Translations under genes and position numbers: made by a program
The notes under the pieces: model-generated
The model's input: the letters and a program-made list of their open reading frames with translations, nothing else
Databases searched by the model: none
What the model was told of the DNA's origin: nothing
Assembly: GCA_041663425.1 (NCBI GenBank)
Contig: JBAYMS010000003.1
Span: 1,959-65,958 of the forward strand
Direction of reading: 5' to 3'
Length of the DNA: 64,000 nucleotides
From: Candidatus Omnitrophota bacterium
GTDB lineage: Bacteria > Omnitrophota > Gorgyraeia > 2-01-FULL-45-10
In this document: positions 7,578 to 28,500 of the stretch, piece after piece
Layout of the letters: the number at the start of each line of letters is the position of its first letter
Numbering within the stretch: the stretch's first letter is position 1

Positions 7578-10500
7578 TTATGCCGCGCTGCTGAGCAGCA
7601 GCACCGCGTTTCTATAACTCGATATCTCCTTTTCGATGCCTATTGGCAGTATCGGCCTAAATTTGAACCTACCGCTCATCTTCAGGTCGTCTATTACGCC
7701 AGGAGGTAGTTCTTTTTCGCCACTCACTACCAAGCTGACCAGTGTGGCATAAGAGTGTATAGCGGCAAGCACCTTAGTGCCGTTTATATCTATCTCGTCC
7801 AGTTCCAGGAATTTTTCTTCGCCTGGTTTTTCGTTTTCTTTGAGCAGCTCACCCCTGGCAGCACGGACACCTATATACTTACGCTCTGTATTCATCTGCT
7901 TCGCTATGCCGCCCATCATGTCATCGTATGAAGCATAGTCATGCTTATTGATGAACCTGACCCTGCCTACGTCCTTGATAGAGCCGCTTGAATTCAATAT
8001 AGCAAAAGCCTCTGTCTCTGTCTTGACTTCGTCTCCGCCGATAATATAGGTAGTAATGCCCTGTTCAGCGGCTTCGTTGATATTGTCTACTGTGTAAGGA
8101 TCTGACAAGTTGGATTTTTCACTTGTAACTATAACCACAGGGCGATCTTCAGACAGCATGTCCTTAACGCGCGGCACGCTCTTATAATATGCAGCCTGCA
8201 CCTTTTCATCAGATTTTCGTTCTGCTATAAGCCGGCGCAGCTTAGCAAGCCTCTCCTGTCTTTCAAGCATCTCGGTCCTATTCGGCCTGGCGCTAAGATA
8301 GTTGAGTATCGCCTGTTCGAGATCAACTTTTCCAAGGTCAGGGAGAAGGGCTTTAATAGTTGCGTCTATTTCATTTCGTATGGCATCATCTATAGAGGTC
8401 ATCCTGAGTATAATTCCGTAATCATTGGCCAGTTTCATCGTAGCGGCTTCCCTGACAATCCTTTCATTTTCCTCCGGACTAAAACCTATCGTCTCGTCAA
8501 TATATATGCCTGCCTGGTTATTTTTTAATTCCAATTCTTTAGGCAAATCAACCCTTCGGACTTCTATATTGAGCCCGGAGCGTCTGAAAGATTCTCTCAG
8601 CCCTTCTTCCTGCTCAGGCGTGACTGATTTCGGCACACCAATAACCAGCCCTGCGGCAGGCCTTTCTTTCAGAGCCTGGACTTCGCCTATCAATCCATTA
8701 ATAGCATACCTGTCATCTGATTCATTTATATACCGATTAAATATCTCCGCCAGGATCTTCACCCTATCGCCCTTTGAAGCAATAAGCGGCGTTTTCGCCG
8801 ATCGCTCTCTATTATGCGATGCTTCAATATCTAAGCGGAAATTAAGCATCTCTCCCAATATGATCGCTAATGCAACAACATCATCCTGAGGCATGGCGGC
8901 ACGCCCTTCTCTCTGCCTTTTTACACTTATATAGTTGTTACGCAGAATACTTTTACGATAACTGTCAGCGGCTACTTCGTCGGTTATCGGAGACACAGAA
9001 TCGTTATCGATGAAAACAACCCGGTCCGCACCATGCAAGCTTTCGCCCGGAGAAATCACTATACCCGCGGGATTTATGTCACCCGCTACACAGCCATTAT
9101 CAAAATAGGTCTTCTTATATGCATCTAATACCGCCAGAGCCAGATCAATGAATTTATCGTCGTTACCTTCCTCCTGATGTAAAACAAAATTTTTAGATAC
9201 GTAATTCCACAGACTTTCCCCTTTTACGTATTCAGTGATAAGAGCGTCTCCGTAAAACTCGCCCTCCAACGTCGTCCCCCTGACGTCAAGCAGCCCAACA
9301 AGGTTAGGTATAGATGAGTTTATATTATTGCGGTTTATCTTATTGGCAAGAATCTCCGCCTGCCGCCTTATAATAAAATCTGAATTCTTCGAATCCAGCG
9401 CGGCCTTTACTACATAATCATGCCCGTTTTCCAGGACAACACCGTTAGCAAGTTTTTGCTCAGGCCCTTCATATCTGAAACGCATCGCACCCCATTGTTT
9501 AACAAGCCTGTTTGCCATAGAAAGCTTTTCCTGGAATTTGAAATGCTCGTTAAAAAATCCATGGTCTAATTGAACTATCGGCGAAACCGCACCGGACGGC
9601 CTGCCGGAATATGCAGCGCCTAGCACAGCCACACCATAAAGTGAAATGAAATTTATCAGATGCGGCAAAATAACAATATCTTTTGGTATAGGTATTACAA
9701 AATAAGCCAGCAGAATGCCTATAACAGTTATGGATAATATAACCGGAAGAGCAGCGGATCCCGCTCTAGAGTATCCTCCATGATCGCCTTGTCTCAGACT
9801 ATCTTTTGCGCCCGATATTATCTTCCTTATGATCTCTGATATCTGACCGCTCGTTATATGAAACACAGAGACCATCTCTTTAGGCGTCTGACCCTGCGCA
9901 GCACGCTCAAATATCTCCCTGTTCCTGGGGCTTATTTTTAATTCGTCAAAAATTTGCTGCAATCTGACCTTTCGATTAACGAATTCTGCTTCGCGCACAG
10001 CTTCGTCGCCTGGCCTGTCCTCAAGGTGTTCCATGTCTATAATATTAGAACTGACTGATTCTCTGGCGATCCTTCTCCTCTCAGTCACATTATGATTTCT
10101 CATTTCGGTATGTATGATTTTTGCCGCCCATGTGGAACGCTGGAATCCCAGTTCGGGTTTAAATGTAATCGCAGCCTTCCAGAGCCCTCCGATAGAGTTG
10201 TTGCTGTTTCCATGAAGCCCGGCGGAGACCAATTTATCCTCACTAAGATATGGGTATTTCTTTTTATAGTATTGCGCTATTTGCCTGACCAGATATTCAT
10301 TATCCCTGATAAAGTCACTTATCCCTTCCTCGTTTCCTGACTGGAAAGAATGGTCTCGCGCAGCACGTATCATCATGAGCGCACCGAGGCCTATTGCACT
10401 ATTTGCAAAATATGGCGCCGCGGCGGTAAAATATCCCGAGGCGAAATAGATGTAATCACTTAAGAACTGCGCGAAACCAAATTGAGCGATAGCGGCAAGA

Positions 10501-13500
10501 TATGGCATGCTAACAAATACTAGTCCTGTGAGAAGAGCAAGCGCTATAACCATAGCCGTAGAGACAAACCCGGCACGGTTCGCTTCAGATAACGCAGTGA
10601 CGGCGAACTCGTAACCGCGGGAGGCGGAGTCACGTAATCCATTCATAGCAGAGTTTCTCAAGTCCTGATCGATGGCGCTGTTTTTAATAATAGATAATAA
10701 TGCGGTGACGGCGGGTGCGTGGCCGCGGGAGGCGGAGTCAGACAATATATCTATAGTAAATCTTCTTGAGTCCTGATCAATGACACTGTTTTCAACAATA
10801 GATAATAATGTAGGTGTAAGATCATTAAGTGCGGTGACGGCGGGTGCGTGGCCGCGGGAGGCGGAGTCAGACAATCCACCTATAGCGCCGATTCTTAAGC
10901 GCCAACCGATGGCACTGTTTTCAACAATAGATAATAATGTAGGTGTAAGATCATTAAGTGCGGTGACGGCGGGTGCGTGGCCGCGGGAGGCGGAATTCCA
11001 CAATATGCTTATAGCAAATTTTCTCAAGTCCTGATCGATGGCGCTGTTTTCAACAATAGACGACAACGCAGCGATGGCGGGCACGTAACCGCGGGAGGCG
11101 GAGTCATGCAATCCATTCATAGCAGAGTTTCTCAAGTCCTGATCGATGGCGCTGTTTTTAATAATAGATAATAACGTAGGTGTAAGATTATTAAGTGCTG
11201 TGACGGCGAGTTCTTGACCGCGGGAGGCGGAGTCATGTAATGCATTCATAGCAGAGATCCTTAAGCCCGGATCGATAGTATTATTTTCAACAATAGACAC
11301 ACCATCTATCGCAATATTCTTTAGTTCTTTCGCTGGCTTATCATCCAAACCAATCCTCATCTTATCTATAAACTCATCGTTCCATCCCTGTTTTTTAATA
11401 TGCTCATCGTACGACAATCCTAAACCTTGCCCACGATAAAATTTCTCTACTGCCTCATCCTGTTCGTCAGCCATATCCGCCGGAAGAGGAGGAGTATTTC
11501 CGGTGTCAGAAAAAAGCTGCAGGAACGCTATAATGCCTTCCGGGTTGTTCCCAAAAAGATGGTTTATATGTCTGCGCAGCAGCACAGAATGATCCGGCGT
11601 GTATATAGCATGTTGATATAAAGGAAGCCCCGTATGAATAATGTTGAACTCCTGCGGCCGCGTCAAGGCATTATGCACTATAGCCATAGCTACTGCTATA
11701 GTAAGCTGCATTCTCCCAAAATATTCATCTTGTCCCAATTTTATGGGGGCAGGCGCAAAAGTATTCAGGGCCACATTATGTGTTCTTCCATATTTAGTAT
11801 CAAAGTAGAACGGGGTTTCATTTTTTTCCGTATAGCTTGAACCTAAAAGCGCTATTTCATCAAAAGTAAGTATGCTATGGCTGTATGCAAATTTACTCCA
11901 GCAATACTCCATAGATTTACCTATAAAAGTCAGCGCCTTAAGTGAATCATCGCTAAATTTCTTTTTCGAACCGACGTGTATGTGCAAACCCTGCGATAGC
12001 ATCAATCCGTTACGATTACGATCGACATATTCCATTATTTTCCTGAGACCTGAATTTAACCTGTCGAACCCTTCTCTGTTGTTTGGTAACCCACCCTCAC
12101 CCGTAGTTACTTCTATATTAGCCCCGTCTCTTTTGATTACCCAGCCCTGATCTTTTAAACCTTCCTCGGTAGCAAATCGATCTAGCCCATCATAAAGAAC
12201 ATTCGTTGCCGCAATGTTCTTGTCATTTATATTATTACTGTTAAGAAGAGCCATTTCGATCTCTATGCCGAATGTCATATCTTTAGGCATGTTCGGCACG
12301 CCGTCTTTGTGATATCGATCAAGTCGTTTTACTATATTAAGGTAAACCACATACCACTCTTCCGAGAGAGAAGCAAGATCCAGTGCTACGATATTTATTA
12401 TGCGCCTCGAGAATTCATCATCCTGAGTCTTAAATGCATCTATAGAACCAAGGATCATCTCAAGCTCTTTTATGTCATATTTAAAAGAAACGTTAACTTT
12501 AATTAAAAGACGGTATGCCTTACTATGCGCTTCTTTATTCCCGGATTTAGTTAAAATAAGCAATGCTGCTTTTTTCAGAGCTTTCTCATCGTCCACACTT
12601 AAAACTATGCCCGTTTCATCTATAAAGAAAATATTATCAAGATGCGCTTTAAGCTCTCCCTTCTCCTCAAGGGCAATAACATCGGTTACGCTGGTTATAT
12701 TGCGAAGGGCTGATAAGGATACCTGACAATCTCTTTTTATTTCATCAAGCTTTTTCTGTTTCGTAGGAGTTAAAACGATAACCGTTTTATCCGGTAAGAG
12801 CAAATTATTTTTCATCACATATTCAGGTTTATAAATTTTATCTAGAGCGGGTGTTTTTGTAGCTACCATCGTGAGCACGCCGATGCCAATCCCGTTATTC
12901 GCAAGATACGGTAAGACGGAGAAAATATCATTCGAGGCAAAATAGATGTAATCGCTTAAGAACTGCGCGAAACCTAATTGAGCTATCGGTATTATGAAAT
13001 ATGCAATAAATAGGCCGGCAACAATAGAGGCCGTTAAAACAGGTATTAGCGTAAACCCTTTTTGATCAGATGGAGGAGTTTCGGGCGTTGCCTGGCCGGC
13101 AATATCTTCAACTTTCTTCAGGCGCTTGTCAAACGAATCAAACTGTTCCGTTAAAACTTTAAGCCTTTCGCCCATATCCGTAACAGCATTCTGCAAGGTA
13201 ACCAGCAAAGTAGGTTTTGCAGCATTTTCCGCATCCAGCATGGCACGTATACGCTTAAGGCTCGTGCCCAACATGCCCATTTCCCATCCTTTACCTGTTG
13301 CCGGAAATTCTAGTAATGGCTGCAGCAGTTTATAAAGCTCGTCGGAGACTGCAAGGCTCACCGGTGCCTTGACCCTATGGTCAGGATGAATAGAAAGCAT
13401 AATAGTCCGGTGCCATTTTTTATATTCTTCATTATCCAATACCTGCCCTGACACTATTTCCATTATCAGTTTTTTAGCGCCTTCGATATCGCCGTCAAGG

Positions 13501-16500
13501 ATAAGGACTGTATTTTTATCCAGGTTAAAACTGCGGAGCCGCTCGATAAAATCTTCAAATAATGGTGACGAAGAAACCTTTTTAATCGAAACGGCCGATG
13601 CATCTTTTGCCGCCACTACCTTCTGCCCTTCTACAGGTGCCCTCTCTACTGATTTGGGCTTTGGAGCTACTTCTTCCGCGGGCTTAAATACCACTTCCTC
13701 GCGAGGTGCTTCTTCAGAAATAACGCCCTCGTCCCTAGTCTCAGTTTCAGAAGCTGTGCCTGCCCTTCGCTGCGCATCCATTTCAGCGAACTCCCTCCGA
13801 GCTATTTCCTGCGCTGCAGCGTCTTTAGCCTTATCCTCGCTATCCTGCCTGATCCGCTCTCTTCTCTCAGCTGCTGCTCTGGCAGCACGCTCCGTCTTTG
13901 CCTGGTCCGATATATCCTCGCCCTGTGAAATTTCCTGCTCTACGCCCACCCAATACCTTCCGATAACTCCAAATAAAGCCAGGCCTCTTTCTTCCGCTAT
14001 GTTGTTAAGGTTGGACATTACTAAACGGCTTTCGGGCTTCGCAGAGTCCCCATAAAGCGCCTTAAGAATTACCGTAAATAATATGACGACCTTCAATTCT
14101 TCAGCTGCAAAAACATCAAGTCCAGCCTCTTTGGCCAATCTGCTTATATTTAATTTTTCGCGCGCGATCAATTTGTTGAATTCCTTGAGCACTTCGGGCA
14201 TTATTAAAATAGAATGCATAAATAAGAGCCACTCGGAAAGCTCACTCATACCGCTTTCAGTCTTTTTATCTCTTCGGGCATATGAAATCTTTGTATTCTT
14301 TTTTATACGTTCCGCATTATTGCGTATCTTGTCTTTAAGATCTTTAAGCGACTTTGATTTTTTTATGTTTTCGATAAGCTCTTCTTTGAGTAACGTCGCC
14401 CCTACAACATAACCCTGATCGGATGAAAGGCGCGTCATATATTCTTCCTGGATGGCACGATCGGATTGACCGGCAGCTTTTGCTCCTGCAGGGCCCTGTA
14501 ATAAAAGCGGCCTCTGCTTCATGCTTTCGGTAAGCAGAGCGGCAAAACCTCCGCCTCCTTCAGCTTGAGACGCAGGGCCTGTAAGCAACGCCGCCGTGGC
14601 CTGCCCAAGCGCGGATTGCGCATTGCTAGGACTTGCACTCCTCAACTCTGATGCTGTAATGGCCGATACGTCAAGCGTCTTAAGTGTTTCAATAAATGCG
14701 CGCCTGGCCACAGAGCCATCGATCCTATCAGTAACATTATCGGTGTCGATCCCTGCACTATTATAGATAAGCTGAACTTTCTTTGCCCCATATCCGCTAT
14801 CGCCTGGTCCGGAAGAATTCAGATAAGACGCCATGACTTCGGACAAAGTTCTGCCGGCATTTATCGAAAGGATATTTCTGGCAGTTTCCGCATCTATCCC
14901 TTTGTCTGCGTATTGGACCGACTGGCTATAGCACACAACTGCATAAGCACTCAGAAGCCTTTCAAGCAGCCTTGCTATGCTATTTCTGTCTACACCATCC
15001 AGAGTATTCGCAAGGTCATCTCTATATAAAGTCCACGAAGATGACATATCCCCACCGTGTTCAGTGCCGTATGTTAATAGCGCCTTTATAAGTTTATGAT
15101 CTTCTTTGGAGGGTTTTTTAATTTCAGGTTTATGGTCAGTAGCTGCAATGGCAGGTTTTTCAACGGGTCCGATAGCTTCGCCCGCGACCTCTTCTGCTTC
15201 TTCCGCCGTTATGGCAAGTGTCGTCCTGGCGATGATCTCTCCGGCTATTTTTTTGGCTTGCGGAATCAGCGCTTTAGCTTTCTGCGGATCAGTCTCACTC
15301 TTCTGAACCATCTGGAGCATTCCGGCCCTTATCAATAAACGCGTAATCTGCCTGGAATCTGCGCTGCGGGCAGAGGCAGGTAAAAGTATCCTTGAGCCTG
15401 AAGTATAAAAATTATTATCTTCGGCGAAACCGATAGAGGCCCCGGACACAGAATTTTTAATATCGGACACATATTTATAATAAGAACTTTTAGTATTAAA
15501 CCGCCTCATCGCTTCTTCGAATATCTTTTTCGCCGCAGCAATTTTTTCTTCATCGCTGCTACCACTACCCAAAATCACAGATGCAACCGCACCGAATCCG
15601 CCGATAAAAATCACTTTGGCCATAACAGGCGATATAAAATAAGCAGCTCCAGCAAGAACGGTTATAAGAATAAGCCCAATAACTCCCCTTCCTCTGAAAA
15701 GAGCCCTATGTTTTTTATTCAAGTCCTCGGCGGCTATACGGCAAGCTTTTATAATAGCACCGCACTCTTTCGCTTCCGCCATAACCAATGCCTTTTCATC
15801 GGGGTCGCCTATCCTGGAGATTAAAGCCTTCACCCTACCCCTGTCACCGAATAAAATCTCCATATCGGCCAGGCTGTCTAAAAGGCTTAATGTCTGCGGT
15901 ATGTGCTGGAAGGTGTCAAAAAACTTCAAATAATCGGAAGCAGAATCTTTAAAACTGCCTATAGCATCTTTTAGTAATTCTACATTTACGCTTTCACCTT
16001 CTTTTACGCTGCGCTCAACATTTTTAACGTCATCCATTCCTTCTCTATAGCAACCTATTGCCTTATCAAGAATTTCCATTTCTTTGAAAGACGGCCTTTC
16101 TGAGAAATATTTTTCCGATTTAGCCTCCGTGCCAGGGTAGGTCTTTCCGAATATCCAACCGCGAACAAGTTCTACTAATTTTGACAACATCCCGCTTCTT
16201 AAATAAGTCATACCTACGGCAGCCACACCGAAAGAAGCAAACAAACTGCTTCCGACAAGCCATGAAGGCAATGCACCGGAGGCAAAATAAAGATAGCTAT
16301 GCAGAAATTCCGAAGGGCCTATTATCGATATTCCAAAAAATACTGATATGGTAAGCGCTGTAATAAGACCAACCATCGCGAGAGCTGCTGACACTTCAAT
16401 CGTTGTAAAACCTGAGCGTTTATTATGGGTCTCGATCTTATTTACAAATTTTGCTTTAAGCATAATTTCATCGAATTCCTTCAATCTGGACAAGCACAAG

Positions 16501-19500
16501 TCTCTCCAGTCCTTATCCTTAAGATCAGCGATAAGCTCTTCTATTTCGGCATACTTATTACTCCTGAGAGGCAGCATCATATTGATAAAGTGAGACCCAA
16601 GAGAAATTCGTCCTTCTCTGAGTCTTTTTAAAATCCCAATAAATTTTGAAAAATCTACTATAGCCTCAGATAAAATTGCCGGATCCGGATGTTGCGCGTT
16701 TTTAAAGCCTTCCAGGCAAAGCACGCCTTCCTGATAATATTCATTAGCCTCGTCCTTAAGCTTTGCGGCCTCTTCATCAGATAAAGCCTTGCCGCGCCGC
16801 AGCACCATAGACACAACTTGAAAAATCAAAGCAACCCCTAAGATAGCGATAATAGCCACTGCTACTACCGGGACAAAATAACACGCAGCTAAAAATATTA
16901 TGCCAAATATACCTATGGTCTTAGCAGTCCTTAAATCCCCTCCTTCTTCACCATCATCCATATTGTCTTTGCCAAAATATATCAGACCGGCAACGCCCAT
17001 AATAGGAATGCCGGCCTTATCCGGAGAAGCAAAAAATTTCATCGCCTTATTTATAAGATCCTGAACCTGTGGCCAATTAAAGAATGCATAAACTGCACCC
17101 AGGCCGATGGCTGTAATGAGGACACTGCGCAGCATATGCGTCTTTGCTTTGTCGTGCCGGACCACCGGTGCCGAACGTGAGAATAAGGATAGGAAGGCTA
17201 TCGCATCGGTTAAAATGAACACTGCGAGCACCAATGCCAAGCTGGTACCAGGATTTTGTTTAAAAAACTCAATACCTGCATTTATAGCATCATTTACTCC
17301 TTTAGCAAATGGACTCCCGGCTGCGGCAAGTAACAACATCGGTGCGTGGAGCTGACGAGGCGCTGCGGCTTTGTCTGATAAAAATTTCTCACGCTGGACT
17401 AACGTGGATTCCCACATACTAACTGATTCGGCCTGCTTTACATTTTTCTCCGATTTCAGATAATCCATATTAGCTATATGATGAATATTTGTGGTAAGCA
17501 CAAATTCTAGAAGATTCAGTAAAATCGCGATAATACCAAAGGGCGTATTGATCAAGGCAGGATTGGCCAGGATTTCTGAAAAATCAAAAGGCGCTACGGC
17601 CAGCGAGGCCAGAACATTAAAAGCAAATATCTTGAATACTGATTTCGTCGGGGGCGCTCTTATGCCTCCGACTTCGATAGAATGCGCTGCGTAGAATATA
17701 GCCCAAGAAACAAATATCGCTCCTATAGCACCGCCGAAGTAATTCATCAATGTAAATGCCTGCGTAAGCGCAAAGAACCCGAGCTGTTCCCAGAAAGCCT
17801 GATAGTGCTCAGTAAGCCCCAGCCATTTAAGCGGCGTCTTCTCCGCAGACCTTAAGAATGCCCGCACCATAGGTATCATCCCCGCGGCAGGAGTTTTATT
17901 ATTTAAAATATTCGCAAGTCTTTCCGTTTCGGCCGTTACCTCTGATATCCTCTTTTCAGTGCCTTCCGGCAGGCCGGAATATTTCATAAAGAAACCCGAA
18001 ATATCTTTTTGCAGCTGCCCGGGCTCTTTTTCTCTTTCGATTTTACGATGTGATAAAATTTTCTCTACGGCCATCATAGCACCGCAGGCCAAACCGAAAG
18101 CAAAACAGAGGGCAACAGCTCCTCCGCCGAAGGCAAAAAGGCTTCCTAAAGCAATGGTGATATAATCATATTCCCAATGCATCGCTACTATCGCGACAAA
18201 TGTCCCCACACCTGCAATAGCCCCGGCTGTCCCGGCAATAGATATGAGGATCTTTTCTTTGAAATCGAAGAAAGGCTCGTTAATAAATGCAGGACCTGCG
18301 ACAGGCGCTTTTAAACTATCTATTTTTTCACTATTTTCGATAGCCGTATTATAAAGTTTAAGGCTTCTGTAAAGATGAGTGAGTATTTTTGCCCTGTCTT
18401 TATTTAAAGTGAATACCGGATCGCCTGTATTGCTGTCACGCCCCGACCTGTAGAAAGGCCAGTCCTGGTCCCTGAATGGCCTTCCGGCCGGATCAAATTC
18501 AGAGTTGAACAAACTTACTTCCGGAAGCAGCATCTTTCTGTCATGGCTGTATCCGACAAAAACCCTGACATTTATATCAACGTTATTTTTTCTGCCAAAA
18601 TACTCAAGGACTGATTTAACATATAAAATAGTTTTACCGGTAGCGGCCATATCCATCAAAAGAATATCCTTATGGTCAGTTATACCGCTGCGCCTCATCT
18701 GTTCAAATAGCAGCTCCGCCTCTTTTGCGAGAGCAGGATCGCTATTCCACTGTTTTATCATTTCATCTTTAAAATAAGCACTGATCTCATTAACTAATTC
18801 CGGGTGATAGCTGGCATAAAAAGCATCCGTCTTCTTTGAAGGCATCCTGCCGCCGCGGCCTATTACCGCATTGCTTAGCTTTTGTATAGAATGCGCTTTC
18901 GCTTTTTCGGTAGCACGCTGCACCATTTCAATACCGCTATCAGGCACATAATCACTGACAATAGCATTATTATTCATACCCGGCTGATACACCAAAGCGC
19001 CTGCGGCGGAATAACCGTTCGCCATACCGTAGTATTTCATAAATTCAGCGGCAGTTATAGCGTCACGGGCGAGGAAAACCGGAAATTCACCATGCTTAAT
19101 ATCAGCGGCATTGAAAAACGAAGGCAGATTTGATATAAGCCTGTCCAGGTGTGTCATATCCATATATAAAGACTGGCGGTGATATATAAGCTGGTAGCGG
19201 AAATATTCTATGGGATCCAGCATATTATATTTTCTGGATATATCACTTACCGGCACACCGCTTTCTATAAGTTTATTGTTGGCTTTTTCCAGGATAGCGA
19301 ATATCTCTTCGTCAGTGAAAGCCCTTGGCTTGTTATTATTATCACGCGGCATCTGGTCTTTAGGTAATGCCCATATGATATTATTGAGATCTTCCAATGT
19401 AAAAGTTTTATGTCTGGCGAATGCGGCTATCTTAGCGGCTATTTTTTCGTATAGGATAGATGCCACGGCAGACGGCTCAACACCATCAGATGCAGACGCA

Positions 19501-22500
19501 TAAGGATCTTTTATTTTCTTTGTCAACTCACGGTCTTCCGCACCAAACACGTGCCATTGCAGCGCCCTAAGAAGATAGTGTTCTTCCACGTGCTTATCCG
19601 GATTCGATCCGGCTTTTAACATCATTATCTCAAGTTCATCCGGGGCTGTTTCCTTAAGATAATTTTTTATAGCTAAAACAAGCCCGGGATTCAGCATAAT
19701 AGCTGAATGGGCTATCTCGTGGAATAGGGCTACAGGATTGTCAGATATTGTTTTTGAAATGACTATAAGATCTGGCGTAGCAAACGAAATGACCGGATCG
19801 CCGGGATGAGAAAGCAGTATAACGTTTCCTTTAAAAGATTTAAGATACGTATCTATAATGGCATTCGCGACAGGATTGTTGTGTTTTTTAATGTCATCTA
19901 AAATGGTTTTTATATTCCTTGGCGGAGCACGACCGACAAAATCTGCCTTACTCAGATCTATAACATTACCCGTCTCCCTATCCTTTAATAAACCTGTCAG
20001 CCTATTTTCGGGTGCATTGTATTGCGGGACAGCACCTTCCACTGGATCGTACTTTCCTATCATACCTACCTGTGAACCCTCAATTATCGTGCCTTTGCCA
20101 TCATGGAAAAACTGACATTGCGGATATGCCTCGGCCTTTTCAAAAATAGCCCGCTCATGCTTTGCCCAGGCGGATACTTCTCTATCGCGCGCATTAATAA
20201 AAGTATTTGCGCTCATTATGTCTATGGCCGCGCCCATAGCGAGTCCTTCTTTCCTGGCTTTAGCTCTGCCGATGAGGACATTTCTGCGCTTCCAACCTTC
20301 TTTACGTGCAAGAAAGCCCACGTCTCCCATATCATTAGACCTGACCCATGACCTTACAACGGCCTTCCACTGAGATCCGATAGATGAGTCAACTGTCTTG
20401 ACGCTGAAAAGACCGTTGTTCAATTCTTCTTCTTCGAGGAAATGATCACCCAGTCTTAGTATATTGCGCACTCTTCTGGCATTTGCCCCAATGGGCCTTC
20501 TGATGAATTCTATTATCGCGCTTCTGTTCTTTTCAAGATCCTGCCCCTTATATAGATCCGCAAGTCGTATACTAACCATATCTTTTCCACTGAATTCCTG
20601 CTTATCAAAATTTGGGGTTATGAGCGCTGCGCGCAGCAAACCCGCCATCTCCTCGCGCCGCTCGGTGGAAATCCCTTCATCCCTTCCTTCTTCCACAGCC
20701 ATCAAATAGGCATGAAGTTTTGAATATTCTAAAAGAGTGTCAGAGACTAAGTCTACCTGTTTTGAATATGGCGTTACAACAGCTATATCGTCAGGGGCAA
20801 GATTGCGCTCATTCAAAAGCCAATTGACCCATGTAACCACCCTGCTGACTTCACCTATATTAACTATTCCTCTGTCAGCAGTATCTTTTCTGGCCCTTTC
20901 CGAAGAGACAATTTTTTCCTGATATATCCTTTTGTCCGTCAAACCTTGCCCATCACTGATCGCATAATGATCCCTTACCAATGTCCCGGTCTCTTCACGA
21001 CCGGCTTTCAGCCTACCATTGTAAAAATAGTTCTCTTCGTCTACTACTAAAGTACCCGACCGGCGCTGTATGTCAAGGAAACGGAAGCTGGGCCTTGTCA
21101 CTTTGAATACCGTATTATCGTAAAGATCCAGGGATTTTTCGAGAAGTGAAATTTTAAACCTTTCCACCACATCCGTCTCAAACACTTCGGCTAACGGCCT
21201 GTTCTCCCCGACTTCACTCCATCCTACGATCTCGCTCTGTCCGCTTAAGTCACGCAGTGCGGCTGCAATATCTTCTTTGCTGATACCATATGCCGGCAGC
21301 TGATCCTGGTCGCCTACGAATATGGCTTTTTTAACATCGCTGAGATTGGTAAACATCCAAAGCGCCCATAAAGACTCCGGAACCGTCGCCCTGCTAGACT
21401 CATCCACTATAACATAGTCCGTCTTCATGAGCTCCTGTCTATCTCTTACATCACGATCTCCGAAAAATCCATTTACAGTTCCGCAGACAAGATTAGGTGC
21501 TTTTTTCTGTATAATATTATCCAGAGCGGCAGCCTTATTCTCCCAGTCACCTAATATCTGAGGATCTACGGCATCCTCATTATTACCCACTCTGGCAAAA
21601 GGGATCTGTTTCACTCCTGACCGCTCCTGTTCACTGAACAGCCCATCTATATCCTTTAGCACCTTTAAAATGTTATCCAATGCGTCATTCTGCTGGGACA
21701 ATAACCTTAGCCTTTTCTTCTGGTTTTCGACTATCAGTTTTGCAAGAAGCGTTATGACCATGGTCTTTCCTGTGCCGCCCGGGCCCTGTATGAGCGTGAT
21801 GGGAATTTCCTCGCATAAACCGTCTATCAAGGCCTCTTTCTGTTCGGAATCAAGAGGATACTTAAGCATTCTTTCCAGCGGTTCTATAAGATCGCGCTCT
21901 ATGGCATTTCTTTTTTCAGCTATGGAGGATGCTCTGGCTTTATCAGGCACATCGATCAAAATCCCGAGAGATCTGTCTGCAATAGGCCGGCCTGTTGTAG
22001 CTAAACCGAAGGATTCGCCTTCACCTATAGACTGCTTCGTTGAGACTTTCAATCTTCCTATAATAGCAGCGAGCATTTCGCACTGTCTCTGCCAGACATT
22101 ATCCTTTACCATGACCAGTTTGCCGCCTTCGTTCAGCGCGTAGGACCACTGCATAAGCAGCTGATCATAACCTGCCCTTACCTTAGGCTGCTCAAATTTA
22201 ATGGTATCCTCTCCTACATAACGCACTCTAAAAAACGGCTGCAGCTCTTTCTGGTTTGATTTAGCAGGGCGGACTTTAAATGAATCGCCGCGCCTTACAA
22301 AATTTGCAATATCTATTTTTTGACCTGTCGTAGGATGTTTAAAGCCGGATACGTAAAGGAAGCCATTTCTCACACTAACCTGTTCAAATACGAATTCCGC
22401 GGCAGCGTCCTGGGATATGTGCATACCCTGCCTCGTCTTCTTATCCCTCTCGGCCTCCGACAGCATCATTGCCTTAGCGATAAAATAATCGTCCATAAGT

Positions 22501-25500
22501 TCCGGCAGCCATATATTCGCCGCAGCCTGTGAAATTATTTTCTGAGCTTTTTCAAGATGCGCTTTTGCCGGAGAGAAATCTCCGAGTTCAAATATCGCGC
22601 GCGCCATATCAAGAGCTGCCTTATAAGCTTTTTCTCTGGCGGCCTTCTCCTTTTTGTCGATCTTACCGGCCTTATTAAATTCATCAATAGCTTTTTGGGT
22701 AAGCAATTCAAAAACGGCCGTCTTGTCCGCTTCTTCCGGATACTGCAGAAGGAGCCTTGATTCCTTCAGCACCGTTTCAACATCCTGTGCATCCCTGATA
22801 TTTTTTGTATGTTCAGCTATATTATCCCTACACTCCTCTATCCTCTGGATCAGCCTCGTAAGAGCGGGGCTATTTTCGTCTATCTGCACGCCAAGGACAG
22901 GCTTAACCCTGCATATATTAGCCACTATAGCAGAAGCTTCTCCATATCTGCGTTCGGCGATTTTCGACTGTGCTTCCGCCAGCAGTCCCTGAACCTTTAA
23001 AAGACGCTCTTCTGCAATTTTCTGCTTCCGCTCTTCCATTATGCTGCCCAAAGCGCTTAAGGCTTCGTCTATATTCCTTCCATCTATAGAAGGATCGCGA
23101 AGGGCTTCGCCCGCATAGATACACCAGCCGGCATCCTCTCCGGCAATTTTAGCTGCACGATCCCCTTGGTTCCTACCCAGAAGTGCCTGTGCGGTAACGG
23201 AAGCTCCTTCGAAATTACTGTCTTTATATTGTTTTTCAAATTTCTCCCATTGCGCAACAGCAGCCAGTATTTCATCTCTTAATGGACCGAGAATACTTGC
23301 AGCATCAGCTCTGGTATTCATAAGTTCCGCGGCATTTTTATACAACGCCGATTTATATAACGAGTCTACGGTAGACTTATACGCATCCGCGCTAAGTTCT
23401 TTTTTTATAGACGAAAGAAAAACACGCATCTTATCTTTTAATTCGCCTTTTACTTTTTCCGAATGGGATAGATCTGACAACGCTATATATACTTTATTCC
23501 CTTTTTCATTCAATCCTATTTCGGCAGCAAATTCGGCTATGCGCATCACCCTAGCGACATCTTCCTTATTATCTATTTTTATCTCTCCACTGGCTATTTT
23601 TTCTAAGTACCCTATTATTCTGGAGAAATCTAAAGAACCGGAAAGCACGGACAAAATATTGCATATGATATGCATTGAATCCTGCGACAAGGGCTCATCG
23701 GACTCATTCAGGAGAAGATCCGTCAGCATATCTACTATTTTCTGGGCCCACTCGTCTGGCAGTAATTTTATGAGCATCGGATAAGAAAATCTGCTCGAAC
23801 CATCCGCCCTTCTGCTGTTTACTACGTTCCTTCTATTGCCATATTCTTTCCCTTCAAAGGCTATCGCATCCTTCAAACATTTTTCTGCTGCCCGAACGTC
23901 CCCTTTCGCATTAAAAGCAATCGCGCCCACTACGTTCATCTGAAAAGCCGTTTCATATCCTTCGTTTTTAAGCGCCATATCCACAGATTCGTTAAGCACT
24001 TCTACGGCATCATCATTGCGGCCTGCAAAAACATCCATAAGCATATGCTGCAAAGTAATATTTTCGCGCCTTTTTTCGGAAACAACTTTATTTATAAACC
24101 CTCCGGATATTTTAGACATAGCCTCGGCCTCACTAAACCTGCCCTCACTTTTATACATATGTGCCAGATTCTGGAGTAAAAGCATATTAAGTAAATTTAC
24201 TTCGTCGTTTTCGGTAGGATAATATTGCTGATTGACGGCAATGACTTCTGCTAATTTTTTAAAGTTATCCCGGTCTTCCAGAATATAAGCCCAAAACGCC
24301 ATGGGGACGCTCTCTGACATCATATTATTTTCTACTATAGGGGGGGTGTAAACAGTTACTGCATTTCTGATAGCTGCATAAATATCAGGATTATGAATAG
24401 CCGCAACGAATGCCGCATTTATATCTATTCTGGATATAGCGTCAAGAACATCCCTTGCCGGCGACACAACCGTTCCGTCTTCCTCAGTCCAGCCATGGTT
24501 TTTTACCATTTTACTTATATTGTCCGACCACACACCCCAGATGTAATCAGCTTTCTCAATATCGGCTTTCTCTCCTAAATACTGGAGAGCCATAGCATAG
24601 CTAGTCAATACATAAAGATCGTCGGCTGAAATCCTTACAACCCCCTTACTTCTTGCAAAATCACGTAAAAAAGAAGTCCGCTCAAAGAACTTAACTGCCC
24701 GCCTATACATACCGGCATTAGAGGCGATTCTACCCAGCCTAGTATATAGTCTGTTAGCAATTCTAATAAGCTTTGAGTCGGTGGCCTTATCCAAAGTATC
24801 AAAGAAAGAACGAAATTCTGCGCGGCTCTTTTTATCTCTCTGTTTTGCAGTTTTTTGAACCTCATAGTTATTATTTATATATTCGAACATCGCTTCCAGC
24901 CTATTTTCAAACTCACGCTTTTTGGGCATATCCCATGAAATTATCTTGAAATGCTCCAGCACTACATCTAACAAATGGTCATGCTTTAGAGGCGTAAGAC
25001 CTATTATCCCGGAAGCTTTGACAATCCTTTGACCCGATTCATCCTGAAGGCATAACACTGAGACAGGGTCATCATTTTTTTCGGTAAAATACCTGCTGAA
25101 AATATCGGAGTATTCTTTCGCTATTAAAGCATAAGTCTCTTTTAAGCCGCGCCCACAGAAGTTGGATATTACAAAAACATTATCTAATTTCTTATCCGCA
25201 AGAGGATCAGCCGCAAGCTCTTTCCTTAAAAATTCATTTAAAGAGTTTGATAGCGGGATATTGCCGTAATGCTGTATGAGAGATTTTACCCAAAGCATTG
25301 CATCGCTACCGTCTCTCTCATTAAAAGCCGCTGCTATAACCTTAATCTTGGATAATATCTCCGGAGTAAGCTCCCTCTCTCTAAGTTTGTCATCCAGCAT
25401 TTTACGCATTCCTCTGGAAGGGTCGGATTTAAATTGCAGCCTGAAATTTATCATTGCAGCAAACGCATCGTCAGGGACAGCTCCCCAGCCATCTATGTCA

Positions 25501-28500
25501 CTTATTGTGTTATCAGCCTTATCCATAAGCAATTTACGCTGCTCGTTGGACAACCCCATGAAAATATCAAATGGTAATATAACACCTCCGGAAAGAAAAT
25601 AATTTTTATCATGTGTATGCATCCTTTTAAATAAATTTATAGCGGCAGCATCAGCTGCATCGGCCTTGCCAAGATGCGAAAGGATGTCTATATAGTATGG
25701 CAAAGCGCGTATGATCTGTTCGTCACTGCCTTTATCAAGAACAGCCGCACATCTTTTTTCCAGCGCTTCACTGAAATTACCTTTATTGCATTCCAGAGAA
25801 ATGCGGAACATCTCGCGTTCGGCATCCTGCTCTGCTGACGGCATCATCTTTGTATCGGACATTGCGATCTCCGCTTCCTCAAAAGTCTCCGACACCATCT
25901 TAAAAAGTTCGGCAGCGCGTGCATCATCTTTACCGCGTAATGAACAGGCTAATTTGATTGCGGCATTACAATACAAAGTGTCAATACGGCCATTGGCGGG
26001 ATAGTCAGCTCTCAATCTTTCCAGAAGGTCAAATGCCTTTGACACGTTTTTATCATCACCCATCATAAGGTCTGCCTCAGCGCATCTTTTAAGCATTTCC
26101 AGCTTGGTATAATTTCTCATACTATCATTTATCATATTTTTAGCGCACATCTCATCTGCGATCGCTACATATTTAGCGGCTATCTTTTTTATCTTGTCGG
26201 GGATGTCTTCTTCTGCGAATAAATATTGTCTGACGTAGATCTTCAGTAAAGCTTGGGCGGAATAAATACTTTCTACCGGGGGCGGCCCTTCCCTGTAGAC
26301 TATAAATTCCAGGATGATCCTGGAAGTCTCCCAGTCTCCCAACATATCTGACGCCATAGCCAATACTGCCAGCCATCCGGTCTTGGGAGATGGTTCCGAA
26401 ATTTTTAACAACAGATATTCATAGGCTAATTTAGCTAACTTCTCATAGTTCTTTTGTTCGACATACACATCTTTCATAGCCGCATAAATCTCCTCCAAAT
26501 CAGCCTTCATCTCACCGGTTCTTTTGCAAAATTCCAAAGCCTTAAGACCATACTCTTCTGCTTTCGCCAACAATATGCCAACTATTTCCGGCATCGTTCC
26601 TTTTTTAGCAATATTTAGAAGAATGCTCGGAAATAATACATAAAAAGCATCGCCTTTCCCCTGCTTACCCTCCAAGGCGTTGCCTTTTTTTGCCATTTGG
26701 CTAACTGCATAATCAAGCAATTCCTCAACCATTACCACTCTGCCTTCAGCCACAACACGGCGTAACATCACGGCAACTTCTTCTTCGAGTTCCGCCTGCC
26801 TCTGTGGTTTTATAGCATCATTGGCAATATCTGCAAAAAGTTTTGAAACAATCCGGTCCGCCTCCTGTTTGTCAGAGGCAGGCAATCCCCTACCACCACC
26901 TAAAGCAGCATATAGTAATATTTTTTTATTCTTAATGACATTTATCACGGCTACGATAACATTTACGCCTAGGTGCACAGCCATCGACACGAGGACTGCG
27001 AGATGATAATTTGACGAGAAGTAGCTTGCTGCAATTATTCCTGCAACACTTACTATGAATGGAGCGGTAAATACCCTGAAGATATAAGAACTGTAGTCTT
27101 TCGTTATTTCTGATATAGCTCTGCCTTTTATCGGAGGAGCGCGCTCATTAAATATGTGCAGTATGGTAAATATAGCCGCGGAGATTGAAAGCGCTGCAAA
27201 AGAATATCCTCCAGTAAACGCCATAGGCAGCCACACTTTAGCAGCTTCCTCAAATACAGGCGCATGAGCAAATGGTGAGTATCCCGAGCCGAATATGCCT
27301 GTAAGAGATCCGTATCTCGCTTTTACAGCATCCTTTGGAATAGTTAGTTCGGCTACAGGTACGAAACCAGCTTCCGGCGCCTTAGCCCTTGATGCAAAAC
27401 CGTTTTCAAACCCTTTTTGCCAATGAGCCATTAAATTTTCCACGGTAAGCCTTTTGCCAGCCTGCTCTATAAAATAGTTTTGAATATCTATGCTTGCATC
27501 CTGAATGTCCTCTTCTTCATTCCTCTCGATAAGTTTAGGAATGTAAGTCTTTGCAAGTTCTTCCGCCTCCTTCTGTGTATTCATAGTCACGAATCCGCCC
27601 AGATCAAAGAAGCAAACCTTTATGCGTTTATTTTTTTCCTGCGCCGATGGATCCAAACTAACCCCTGCATTAACAAGAAGCACGTCATGATTAAATATCC
27701 CGGCTTCCCACATGTCTTCAAGTGCTCTGAAATAATCATCAATAATAGTCTTTGCTGTTTCGACGTCTTCGCTACTGCCTTTAGAAAGAGTTTCCAGTAT
27801 ACCGTTTTCTACAAAACGTGACCCCACCTTCATATACTCCGCATCAAGCCCTACTATAGGCACTATTTCATCTTCTACATACACAGTACTCGGCGGCGAC
27901 CATATCATACGGTCACGGAAACGCGCGGGAACTTTCGGCCTTATATCGTCGATGACACGATTGGGTAAAGTCACTCCTTCAAGCTTGGTTGTAGGTACAA
28001 ACCTCGTCCCGAGATTATTAATAGCCGTCTGCGCACTAACCAGGCTCAGCTGTGCAACCGGGACATGAACTATAAATCCTCTGCAGTGATAAACATAACA
28101 AGGCGTTTCATCATTCGACCGTGGCCTGCTGATAAGCTCCCAGTCATTGTTTGCGAGTTCTTTATGTAAATCGGCTTTGACAGGTTGGCCTTCCCCAGTC
28201 ACACCTGCCATACCCACCGGGAAATGGGTGCTGGTTTTTTTCGAAAGCCACTGAGAGATTTTAACATTATAGAATGCATGGCCTAGAATGCCTGAAAATA
28301 CGGAGAGAGTCGTAGCAGGATAAACCGGCAGGAATAAAAATGGCACAATATTTATAACCCGCAAAGCTGCGCCTAGCAATGTTATTATATTTATCATATC
28401 CGGATGTGATGGTGAATACACAGGTCTGCCATCCTCTGTAATTATATAAACACCACGCCAATGCGCTGCCTGAAACAGAAAGATGCTTAGCAGGGCACCG

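What the first reader, a model, noticed from the sequence alone, without database searches (positions are those of the whole stretch)
7578..13060. Possible polyprotein-like organisation: TM hairpins carrying a conserved junction motif delimit soluble modules in gene A
In the C-terminal third of gene A, three TM hairpins precede three unrelated soluble modules. The modules are the GS-like amidoligase plus HEAT repeats (about 12960), the sigma-70 module (about 10500) and kinase-like domain 2 (about 9700). Two hairpins end in the identical peptide AQ[LF]GFAQFLSDYIYFAS. Together with the embedded HExxH and CPBP-like protease motifs, this suggests regulated intramembrane or juxtamembrane proteolysis. 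Cleavage could release functional modules such as the sigma domain. This is speculative.
Basis: inference. Interest (0 to 1): 0.7.

Follow-up and report, generated by a model that had tools for sequence, protein, structure and literature searches.

The report
Membrane hairpins stapling a giant protein
An 8,360-residue protein of an uncultivated Omnitrophota bacterium carries complete enzyme and sigma-factor modules separated by repeated two-helix membrane anchors; the layout is real and partly new, but nothing shows that the protein is cut into pieces.

Summary
Gene A (7578-32660, minus strand, 8,360 aa) carries AQ[LF]GFAQFLSDYIYFAS twice. Three membrane hairpins bracket three unrelated soluble modules:
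- a complete ECF-type sigma-70 domain (TIGR02937, above its curated cut-off);
- a weakly kinase-like domain.

Corrections:
- The peptide lies between the two hydrophobic segments of each hairpin, not at a module junction.
- A third, diverged hairpin copy lies upstream, outside the finding.
- The peptide's identity is mostly recent DNA copying: 48/51 bases identical, and 14/16 codons the same against 6.6 expected (P = 6e-5).

The exact motif turned up nowhere else. One diverged copy sits in a related Omnitrophota contig. The closest homologue of the ligase module has no hairpin at either boundary but carries its own repeated hairpin (GLSGWWLAAGIG, four copies).

Best reading: an Omnitrophota giant protein whose cytoplasmic modules are stapled to the inner membrane by paralogous hairpins. 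Cleavage is untested and has already been proposed for such proteins. Two hairpins start with a prepilin-like G|FT[LT]I, which gives a testable cut site. A sigma factor tethered at both ends most plausibly needs proteolytic release.

The parts
7578..32660 (-). Gene A: giant ORF, 8,360 aa. About nine two-helix hairpins plus three CPBP-like multi-pass blocks are interspersed with soluble modules.
   Evidence: the N-terminal domain places it in Candidatus Omnitrophota
16182..16421 (-). hp0 (aa 5414-5493): the oldest copy of the hairpin module. It starts KRSG|FTTIEV and carries the motif GPSEFLHSYLYFAS.
   Evidence: HMM 103 bits; exact match to PROSITE PS00409; TIGR02532 14.3 bits, below the 16.3 cut-off
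12846..13073 (-). hp1 (aa 6530-6605): hairpin module preceding the ligase module. It starts DQKG|FTLIPV.
   Evidence: TIGR02532 11.9 bits
12933..12983 (-). Motif copy 1, AQLGFAQFLSDYIYFAS (aa 6560-6576), located between hydrophobic segments 1 and 2.
11361..12845 (-). Carboxylate-amine ligase module (aa 6606-7100) with a GS / GCL / PafA-Dop type fold, preceded by a helical subdomain.
10587..11360 (-). 43-aa (129-nt) alpha-solenoid-like repeats (aa 7101-7358); copies are up to 78% identical in DNA.
   Evidence: family D2; weak HEAT/importin matches; repeat-protein hits P0017 and P0023
10353..10586 (-). hp2 (aa 7359-7436): hairpin module preceding the sigma module. It starts NRAG|FVSTAM.
   Evidence: 123-nt direct repeat with hp1 at 76% identity (family D6)
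10437..10487 (-). Motif copy 2, AQFGFAQFLSDYIYFAS (aa 7392-7408); 48 of 51 bases identical to copy 1.
9768..10352 (-). Complete ECF-type sigma-70 domain (aa 7437-7631) with regions 2 and 4.
   Evidence: TIGR02937 47.9 bits, above the 42.9 cut-off; end-to-end alignment with stand-alone sigma factors; region 4 pLDDT 81-85
9609..9767 (-). hp3 (aa 7632-7684): tight hairpin with a PKD turn and no motif. Its helix 1 resembles hp1 helix 1.
8661..9608 (-). Kinase-like module (aa 7685-8000); the assignment is weak.
   Evidence: Pkinase E 0.005, 16.6 bits, below cut-off; LanKC kinase region E 2e-4; no PDB sequence match
7581..8660 (-). Family-conserved C-terminal domain (aa 8001-8360) ending in YRNAVLLLSSAA.
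   Evidence: tblastn to L001, L002 and L005 at 23-27% identity; the tail is conserved in four proteins
28251..28598 (-). CPBP-like block 1 (aa ~1355-1470): FEELFFS / FQAAH / HAFYN.
   Evidence: no HMM hit
26931..27269 (-). CPBP-like block 2 (aa ~1798-1910): FEEAAK / FTILH / HLGVN.
   Evidence: Pfam Rce1-like E 0.0019, 18.9 bits, below the 22.4 cut-off
17466..17828 (-). CPBP-like block 3 (aa ~4945-5065): WEQLGF / FYAAH / HHIAN. It is 54% identical to a block in L001.
19707..19721 (-). The single HExxH (HEIAH, aa 4314-4318).
   Evidence: no family match for aa 4180-4420

Best explanation
Gene A is a giant, inner-membrane-anchored mosaic protein of a Candidatus Omnitrophota bacterium. Its C-terminal third is a chain of complete cytoplasmic modules:
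- a GS-fold carboxylate-amine ligase with solenoid repeats;
- a whole ECF-type sigma factor;
- a kinase-like domain;
- a family-conserved C-terminal domain.

Short two-helix hairpins staple these modules to the membrane. Three hairpins (hp0, hp1, hp2) are paralogous copies of one roughly 77-residue cassette. The cassette has three parts:
- a strongly hydrophobic helix entered from the cytoplasm after a basic residue and G|F;
- an aromatic amphipathic connector, G-x3-FL-x2-[YW]-[IL]-Y-[FY]-AS;
- a weaker return helix.

The 17-residue identity between hp1 and hp2 comes from recent copying of a roughly 50-nt tract (gene conversion), laid over an older protein-level constraint on the connector.

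Shown: the ORF, the repeats, the module identities and boundaries, and the taxon.

Inferred:
- the in-out-in topology, from charge distribution and from the cytoplasmic nature of the flanking modules;
- the function of the hairpins as tethers that keep each module on the inner face of the membrane;
- the sequestered state of the sigma domain, held at both ends by linkers of about 15 residues, so that it would need proteolytic release to act with RNA polymerase.

Obligatory processing of the whole protein into separate products is not required by any of the data.
For: **ORF and taxon**
- One stop-free ORF of 25 kb.
- The N-terminal domain hits seven Omnitrophota MAG contigs.
- Neighbouring gene B has a SecA_DEAD domain, as described for Omnitrophota giant genes.

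**Hairpin pattern**
- Hydrophobic peaks come in pairs 20-48 residues apart all along gene A.
- Basic residues flank the hairpins and acidic residues sit in the connector (sequence).

**Modules**
- Identities.
- Boundaries coincide with the hairpins.
- Modules are lineage-specific insertions. Positional orthologues L002 and L005, and the paralogue in L001, go from the shared middle region through a hairpin straight to the shared C-terminal domain.

**Hairpin family**
- HMM hits of 103-124 bits for the three window copies and 34 bits for L001.
- Codon test: 14 of 16 codons the same against 6.6 expected, P 6e-5. Flanks: 4 of 9 against 3.25 expected.
- No RNA structure in the tract.
- The neighbouring 129-nt repeats show that this region undergoes recent intragenic copying.
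- A related giant protein, P0001, has a different hairpin repeated four times. In both proteins compared, hairpins repeat within a protein and differ between proteins.

**Literature**
Against: - Topology is not established. The second segment of hp0, hp1 and hp2 is only marginally hydrophobic (KD 1.4-1.5), no dedicated topology predictor was available, and the AF2 model of hp2-sigma-hp3 is poor (pLDDT 55).
- A pure tether role does not explain why the connector core is kept in the old copies (hp0, L001).
- It also does not explain why hp0 keeps a perfect prepilin-type cleavage pattern.
- A sigma factor permanently fixed in an 8,360-aa membrane protein has no obvious function unless it is released.
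- No expression or protein data exist for this gene.
Confidence: 0.6

Rival explanations
1. True polyprotein. The giant precursor is cut at the cytoplasmic entry of each hairpin, at the prepilin-like G|F (class III signal type), by a prepilin peptidase. The products would be separate enzymes, each anchored by an N-terminal hairpin.
For: - hp0 matches PROSITE PS00409 exactly (KRSG|FTTIEV plus 14 hydrophobic residues). hp1 matches except for E+5.
- TIGR02532 aligns over its full length to both, at 14.3 and 11.9 bits.
- There were no such matches in about 72,000 residues of homologous giant proteins.
- The orientation (basic leader side cytoplasmic) is the one prepilin peptidases use (established knowledge).
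- Omnitrophota giant genes are reported to lie near type II/IV secretion and pilus genes and near small class III signal-peptide genes.
- L002 has RGGFTTLAV at a helix start.
Against: - HMM scores are below the curated cut-off.
- G-1 and F+1 are not kept in all copies: hp2 has AG|FVST, hp3 has AG|SAAL, and L001 has SA|FASV.
- All hairpin copies descend from one ancestor, so this is essentially one independent occurrence.
- Known prepilin peptidase substrates have leaders of a few to about 30 residues, not thousands (established knowledge).
- This cut alone would leave the sigma domain tethered by hp2.
- No prepilin peptidase gene is visible in the window.
Confidence: 0.12
2. Regulated intramembrane proteolysis releases only the sigma module. 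A site-1 cut in the extracytoplasmic connector of hp2 and/or the hp3 loop is followed by intramembrane cleavage, by the in-cis CPBP-like domains or by a separate site-2 protease. This frees an ECF sigma factor, as with IutY or pro-sigma-K.
For: - The sigma domain is complete and bounded by membrane segments on both sides, with linkers of about 15 residues.
- Precedents exist for membrane-fused ECF sigma factors activated by proteolysis: IutY/ECF243 via Prc and RseP, ECF52 SCO4117, and ECF36 with N-terminal TM helices (PMC8999054).
- Three CPBP-like motif triplets are present in the same protein.
- The connector core is conserved at the protein level in old copies.
Against: - No anti-sigma domain was detected.
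- CPBP assignments are sub-threshold.
- No site-2 protease context is available.
- Release would need cuts on both sides of the sigma domain.
- hp3 lacks the motif.
- The sigma module is absent from all related giant proteins found, so it may be a recent, possibly non-functional capture.
Confidence: 0.2
3. The conserved 51-nt tract is a nucleotide-level signal (an RNA structure, a recoding site or an internal start) rather than a protein feature.
For: Synonymous sites in the tract are far more conserved than expected (P 6e-5).
Against: - There is no stable structure: z-scores are +1.5 and +0.6 against shuffles.
- I saw no slippery heptamer and no Shine-Dalgarno sequence with a start codon in the tract (by eye).
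- The older copy hp0 keeps the peptide core but not the nucleotides.
- Only two copies exist, in one gene.
Confidence: 0.03
4. Artefact: separate genes were joined by assembly or sequencing error, so the hairpins are really N-terminal anchors of independent proteins.
For: - Each module looks like a complete gene product, with the sigma module aligning end to end.
- The hairpins resemble N-terminal signal anchors.
Against: - There are 25,083 bases without a stop in one frame at 44% GC.
- No start-codon or ribosome-binding signals are apparent at the junctions.
- Related contigs and representative proteins show the same giant, hairpin-punctuated layout.
- Giant ORFs are documented in complete Omnitrophota genomes.
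Confidence: 0.02

Closest known systems
Omnitrophota giant genes (West-Roberts et al. 2023, bioRxiv 10.1101/2023.11.21.568195; 2026 preprint 10.64898/2026.06.07.730766)
   Same: - The phylum.
- Tandem giant ORFs of more than 8,000 aa with many transmembrane helices.
- A SecA DEAD-like domain in neighbouring gene B.
- Mosaic enzyme and regulatory content, read as inner-membrane-anchored cytoplasmic domains.
- Post-translational cleavage is already hypothesised, with cleavage points stated to be unknown.
   Different: - Those papers base the cleavage idea on C39 and S8 peptidase domains, which are not found here.
- Term searches of the two papers found no mention of a sigma factor in either, and none of 'hairpin', 'interspersed' or 'punctuat' in the 2026 preprint. 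Prepilin-like motifs inside a giant protein were not specifically searched for; the 2023 paper mentions class III signal peptides only for small neighbouring genes.
Membrane-tethered ECF sigma factors activated by proteolysis (IutY/ECF243; ECF48/52/53 such as SCO4117; ECF36) and pro-sigma-K/SpoIVFB
   Same: A sigma-70 region 2 plus region 4 domain is covalently joined to transmembrane segments, so activity plausibly depends on proteolytic release from the membrane.
   Different: - Here the sigma domain is tethered on both sides.
- It has no recognisable anti-sigma domain.
- It sits about 7,400 residues into an 8,360-residue protein.
- Group membership and processing were not tested.
Type IV prepilin / pseudopilin class III signal peptide (PROSITE PS00409, TIGR02532, PF07963)
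   Same: hp0 and hp1 begin with [KR]-x-G|F-T-[TL]-I-[EP] followed by a hydrophobic helix with the leader side cytoplasmic. hp0 matches the PROSITE pattern exactly.
   Different: - The motif is internal, 5,400-6,500 residues from the N-terminus.
- It is followed by a return helix rather than a periplasmic pilin domain.
- HMM scores are below cut-off.
- It is not conserved in hp2, hp3 or the L001 copy.
Viral and organellar polyproteins
   Same: Unrelated, complete functional modules are encoded in one ORF, and candidate proteases lie in the same chain.
   Different: - No conserved cleavage site at the junctions across homologues.
- No demonstrated protease.
- No evidence of products.
- Homologues carry the same module without hairpins.
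Amidoligase_2 / GS-like carboxylate-amine ligases (PF12224; Dop, PafA, YbdK, GCL)
   Different: - The window's own sequence does not reach any Pfam threshold.
- The substrate is unknown.
- The domain is embedded in giant proteins together with an N-terminal helical subdomain.

Membership tests
Sigma-70 family, ECF-like (TIGR02937) | Profile score above the curated cut-off over the full model | tested here: met
   47.9 bits against 42.9; E 1.1e-12; model positions 3-159 of 165. Pfam Sigma70_r2 alone is below its cut-off (17.1 against 24).
Sigma-70 family, ECF-like (TIGR02937) | Both region 2 (core binding, -10 recognition) and region 4 (HTH, -35 recognition) present, with no region 1.1 or 3 | tested here: met
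   End-to-end alignment with 164-179 aa sigma factors. GLWKAAITFKPELGFQRSTWAAKII corresponds to region 2.2-2.3 and SPRNREIF...TPKEM...ITSGQISEIIRKI to region 4.2. Region 4 has pLDDT 81-85.
Sigma-70 family, ECF-like (TIGR02937) | Cognate anti-sigma factor or target promoters | not testable with these tools
   The window holds only three giant genes, and no anti-sigma domain was detected in the flanks.
Type IV prepilin class III signal (PS00409 / TIGR02532 / PF07963) | G(-1), F/M(+1), E(+5) and a hydrophobic stretch of about 14-20 residues | tested here: inconclusive
   hp0 matches PS00409 exactly. hp1 lacks E+5. hp2, hp3 and the L001 copy are degenerate.
Type IV prepilin class III signal (PS00409 / TIGR02532 / PF07963) | Profile score above the curated cut-off | tested here: not met
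   TIGR02532: 14.3 bits (hp0) and 11.9 bits (hp1) against a cut-off of 16.3. PF07963: 13.1 bits against 21.2.
Type IV prepilin class III signal (PS00409 / TIGR02532 / PF07963) | Located at the N-terminus behind a short basic leader | tested here: not met
   The motifs start at aa 5416 and 6534 of an 8,360-aa ORF.
GS-like carboxylate-amine ligase / Amidoligase_2 | Glutamine-synthetase-type catalytic fold | tested here: met
GS-like carboxylate-amine ligase / Amidoligase_2 | Pfam PF12224 profile match | tested here: inconclusive
   No hit for the window sequence. Two of 14 homologues hit, best E 2.8e-4. No PDB sequence match with the profile.
CPBP (Rce1-like, PF02517) intramembrane proteases | Motifs EExxxR, FxxxH and HxxxN/D on successive TM helices, and a profile score above cut-off | tested here: inconclusive
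   Three motif triplets, with R replaced in motif 1. Best HMM score 18.9 bits against 22.4 for block 2; none for blocks 1 and 3.
Protein kinase-like fold | Pkinase or related profile above cut-off | tested here: not met
   Pkinase 16.6 bits against 31.7. LanKC kinase region E 2e-4, far below cut-off. No PDB match.
HEAT/ARM repeats | Profile match to HEAT-type repeats | tested here: inconclusive
   HEAT_EZ E 0.28; IBN_N E 0.003. There are tandem repeats on a 129-nt (43-aa) period (family D2), and hits to solenoid repeat proteins P0017 and P0023.
Polyprotein | Conserved cleavage sites at module junctions in homologues | tested here: not met
   P0001 has the homologous ligase and repeat module with no hairpin or motif at either end. 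None of 36 homologue representatives carries the hairpin. Orthologous positions in L002 and L005 lack it.
Polyprotein | Separate mature products demonstrated | not testable with these tools
   This needs proteomics.
Omnitrophota giant genes | Omnitrophota origin, ORF of many thousands of aa, numerous TM helices, SecA DEAD-like domain in most | tested here: met
   Taxon. ORFs of 8,360 aa, 10,319 aa and at least 2,457 aa. TM pairs. SecA_DEAD in gene B, E 1.9e-12; gene A instead has an SF1 helicase, AAA_11/AAA_12.

The most novel reading that the evidence does not exclude
The hairpins are processing punctuation. A prepilin-type peptidase, or the in-cis CPBP-like domains, cuts the 8,360-residue precursor at the G|F entry of each hairpin. 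The products would be hairpin-anchored enzymes and a membrane-tethered ECF sigma factor that a second cut releases. This would be the first cellular bacterial polyprotein with defined cleavage sites, and an answer to how Omnitrophota giant proteins are used.
Probability: 0.12. Interest if true: 0.85.

Novelty: new variant of a known kind. Interest (0 to 1): 0.45.

Why it matters
Whether the giant proteins of Omnitrophota act as single chains or as precursors is an open question. The 2023 paper says that cleavage points are unknown.

This locus offers concrete, testable candidates:
- a repeated hairpin cassette lying exactly at module boundaries;
- two copies that start with a prepilin-type G|F site;
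- a complete sigma factor held between two hairpins, which gives a functional read-out because release should lead to transcription.

It also shows a general pattern worth checking in the new complete genomes: hairpins repeat within a protein but differ between proteins. That points to intragenic copying as the way these proteins grow.

If the protein is not cut, the locus is simply one more membrane-anchored mosaic giant.

Tried and rejected
1. **Word-index search, long query.** The search with the 1,841-aa C-terminal region gave no hits. This was a sensitivity limit of the tool: the exhaustive search later found 36 homologues.
2. **Hairpin alignments.**
   - The 3-sequence and 4-sequence alignments (A1, A3) found nothing in the word-index protein search.
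   - They also found nothing in pattern scans of genome contigs, metagenome contigs or viral contigs.
   - Copies about 45% identical over 60 residues would be below detection in libraries of this size, so absence only excludes close copies.
3. **RNA structure in the 51-nt tract.** Rejected.
4. **AF2 model of hp2-sigma-hp3.** pLDDT 55, unusable except for region 4, so no fold search was run on it.
5. **PDB sequence searches.** The kinase-like, sigma and C-terminal modules, and the ligase profile, gave nothing useful.
6. **Genes between the B-like and A-like genes in L004.** These were checked for secretion or prepilin-peptidase genes and none were found; the matches were HD-GAF, MBOAT, DUF1574, PAPS reductase-like, AMP-binding and TPM domains.
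7. **A sigma-like module at the start of the L001 fragment.** Not supported.
8. **HExxH as a metalloprotease.** One motif and no family match, compatible with chance.

Full report
**What is in the window**

The window holds three tandem giant ORFs on the minus strand:
- gene B, 32859-63818, 10,319 aa;
- gene A, 7578-32660, 8,360 aa;
- gene C, from 7373 off the left end, at least 2,457 aa.

No tRNA genes were found. Genes A and C share an N-terminal domain of about 520 aa at 35% identity. An alignment of that domain recovered seven contigs, all from Candidatus Omnitrophota MAGs. Gene B carries a SecA DEAD-like domain. That domain is reported for most full-length giant genes, which are commonest in Omnitrophota (10.1101/2023.11.21.568195, abstract from memory; SecA helicase domains confirmed). 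Gene A carries an SF1 helicase (AAA_11/AAA_12) and TPR repeats in its first 5,000 residues.

**Checking the observation**

The two peptides exist. AQLGFAQFLSDYIYFAS is at aa 6560-6576 and AQFGFAQFLSDYIYFAS at aa 7392-7408. A 42-nt core occurs exactly twice in the window and never in 100 shuffles.

Each peptide lies between a strongly hydrophobic segment (Kyte-Doolittle 2.35-2.46) and a weaker one (about 1.4). So it is the connector of the hairpin, not its end.

A profile of the roughly 77-residue unit finds three copies in gene A. These are hp1, hp2 and a diverged hp0 at aa 5414-5493, outside the finding. It finds none in genes B or C. Hairpin 3 (aa 7632-7684) lacks the motif. Its first helix resembles that of hp1 at 11 of 28 residues, somewhat above other helices of the protein.

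Hydrophobic peaks along gene A come in pairs 20-48 residues apart. That gives about nine hairpins plus three multi-pass blocks.

**The modules**

*Sigma module.*
- It reaches the curated cut-off of TIGR02937 (47.9 against 42.9 bits, E 1e-12, nearly full model).
- It aligns from first to last residue with stand-alone sigma factors of 164-179 aa.
- It is therefore a whole sigma gene's worth of sequence sitting exactly between hp2 and hp3.

*Ligase module.*
- It had no Pfam or NCBIfam match of its own.
- An exhaustive search found homologues, mostly inside other very long proteins.
- With their alignment, AlphaFold2 gave a confident model (pLDDT 86).
- Two of 14 homologues touch Pfam Amidoligase_2.

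*Other elements.*
- The repeats after the ligase are 43-aa units with only weak HEAT-type matches.
- The kinase-like call rests on sub-threshold matches.
- Three CPBP-like motif triplets are present, the best at 18.9 bits against a cut-off of 22.4.
- The single HExxH has no family support.

**Is the motif conserved?**

- The hairpin alignments found no relatives in the 5.8-billion-cluster protein library, in one genome per GTDB species, in JGI metagenome contigs or in viral contigs.
- The exhaustive search with aa 6520-7700 gave 36 representatives, and none contains the hairpin.
- The best hit, P0001, is a 7,683-aa protein with the same N-terminal family domain. It is 41% identical over the ligase and repeat module, which has ordinary soluble sequence on both sides.
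- P0001 has instead four copies of a different hairpin built around GLSGWWLAAGIG.
- The genes upstream of gene-C orthologues in L002 and L005 are positional orthologues of gene A. They lack the ligase, sigma and kinase modules.
- L002, where that stretch is on the contig, goes from a shared middle region through a hairpin to the shared C-terminal domain. The giant ORF in L001 has the same layout.
- One diverged hairpin copy does exist in L001 (ITQLGPATFLRDWLYYASGSLP, 34 bits).
- Together with hp0, this shows a protein-level core G-x3-FL-x2-[YW]-[IL]-Y-[FY]-AS.

**Why hp1 and hp2 are identical**
- Across the 17 residues, 48 of 51 bases are identical.
- Of the 16 identical residues, 14 use the same codon. 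Gene A's own codon usage predicts 6.6 (P = 6e-5).
- In the flanks, 4 of 9 identical residues share a codon against 3.25 expected, and nucleotide identity is 56%.
- hp0 keeps the peptide core with different codons.
- The tract has no unusual RNA structure.
- The adjoining 129-nt repeats are up to 78% identical, so recent intragenic copying occurs in this region.
- The simplest reading is a short gene-conversion tract laid over an older, moderately constrained connector.

hp0 starts KRSG|FTTIEV followed by 14 hydrophobic residues, an exact match to the PROSITE prepilin cleavage/methylation pattern. hp1 starts QKG|FTLIPV.

TIGR02532 aligns over its full length but below cut-off, at 14.3 and 11.9 bits against 16.3.

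The predicted orientation has the basic side in the cytoplasm, which is the orientation prepilin peptidases use (established knowledge). The literature reports pilus and type II secretion genes, and small genes with class III signal peptides, next to Omnitrophota giant genes.

Against this:
- the signal is degenerate in hp2, hp3 and L001;
- all copies share one ancestor;
- no known substrate has a leader thousands of residues long.

I treat it as a candidate cut site, not as family membership.

**Mechanism**

The flanking modules are an ATP-dependent ligase, a sigma factor, a kinase-like domain and, further upstream, a helicase. All are expected to be cytoplasmic.

Charges around the hairpins fit an in-out-in path. 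The best-supported model is therefore a chain of cytoplasmic modules stapled to the inner membrane. This matches one of the readings in the 2026 preprint.

The sigma domain would be held at both ends by linkers of about 15 residues. By analogy with IutY, the ECF52 and ECF36 groups and pro-sigma-K (and established knowledge), it would need proteolysis to act. That step is inference.

Whole-protein processing is possible. It has been proposed before on other grounds. It is neither required nor supported by the conservation data.

**Verdict**

The architecture is real. It is a clear example of a known kind, Omnitrophota giant membrane-anchored mosaics, with new details:
- a paralogous hairpin cassette;
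- a prepilin-like entry to that cassette;
- a sigma factor tethered at both ends.

The 'conserved junction motif' is mainly a product of recent copying. The polyprotein idea remains speculative, at roughly 0.1-0.3 depending on how much processing is meant.

Noticed in passing
window 7581-7616 (gene A C-terminus); L001 ~5850-5887; L002 ~6135-6172; L005 ~1070-1106: The extreme C-terminal tail [FY]R[NS]A[VM]LLLSSAA-stop is conserved in four giant proteins from different Omnitrophota MAGs. Their C-terminal domains are otherwise only 23-27% identical. A C-terminal di-alanine is a known ClpXP-type degron (AntA, ssrA), so this could be a degradation or extraction signal.
   Followed up: partly
P0001 aa 1668, 3079, 3473, 3878 (representative protein): A related 7,683-aa protein has four copies of a different hairpin with the conserved core GLSGWWLAAGIG, each between soluble regions. 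In the two proteins compared, hairpins repeat within a protein and differ between proteins. This suggests growth by intragenic copying or a need for like-with-like helix packing.
   Followed up: partly
window 5664-7196 and 30861-32393: Genes A and C share an N-terminal domain of about 520 aa (IINIQDAH...EG..G.ID...TGGFH; 35% identity). The domain also opens P0001 and P0015 and marks seven Omnitrophota contigs. It has no family assignment.
   Followed up: partly
window 59406-61150 (gene B): A long run of degenerate 15-nt periodic repeats (31 or more copies) encodes an Ala/Lys/Glu-rich, probably coiled or disordered, region near the N-terminus of gene B.
   Followed up: no
window 10594-11259: The solenoid repeats before hp2 are built on a 129-nt period, with copies up to 78% identical in DNA. 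This indicates recent tandem duplication immediately next to the converted hairpin tract.
   Followed up: partly
L002 ~3250-3330 (aa ~1085 of the fragment): A second, independent-looking prepilin-like helix start (SRGG|FTTLAVPAVLTVLAMG) occurs in the positional orthologue of gene A from another MAG. It lies just before the region homologous to the middle part of gene A.
   Followed up: no
window 29640-29700 (gene A aa ~985-1008): Another helix begins with K-G-F (VIKGFMIAVLMGGMLAAEAG). It is a further G|F-type entry that does not belong to the hairpin family.
   Followed up: no
window ~2790-3170 (gene C aa ~1400-1530): Gene C contains a CofD/YvcK-like domain (TIGR01826, E 3e-17, below the family cut-off). 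This is another captured cytoplasmic module.
   Followed up: no
window 46001-48000: A local GC rise to 52%, against a background of about 45%, inside gene B.
   Followed up: no
L004 2236-9580: In one relative, six ordinary genes separate the B-like and A-like giant genes. They match HD-GAF, MBOAT, DUF1574, PAPS-reductase-like, AMP-binding enzyme and TPM phosphatase families. In the window, B and A are only 198 bases apart, so the tandem arrangement is not fixed.
   Followed up: partly
tool behaviour: The word-index protein search returned nothing for the 1,841-aa query, yet the exhaustive search found 36 homologues (8 below 1e-30). Negative results from the word-index tool with long queries should not be read as absence.
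   Followed up: yes
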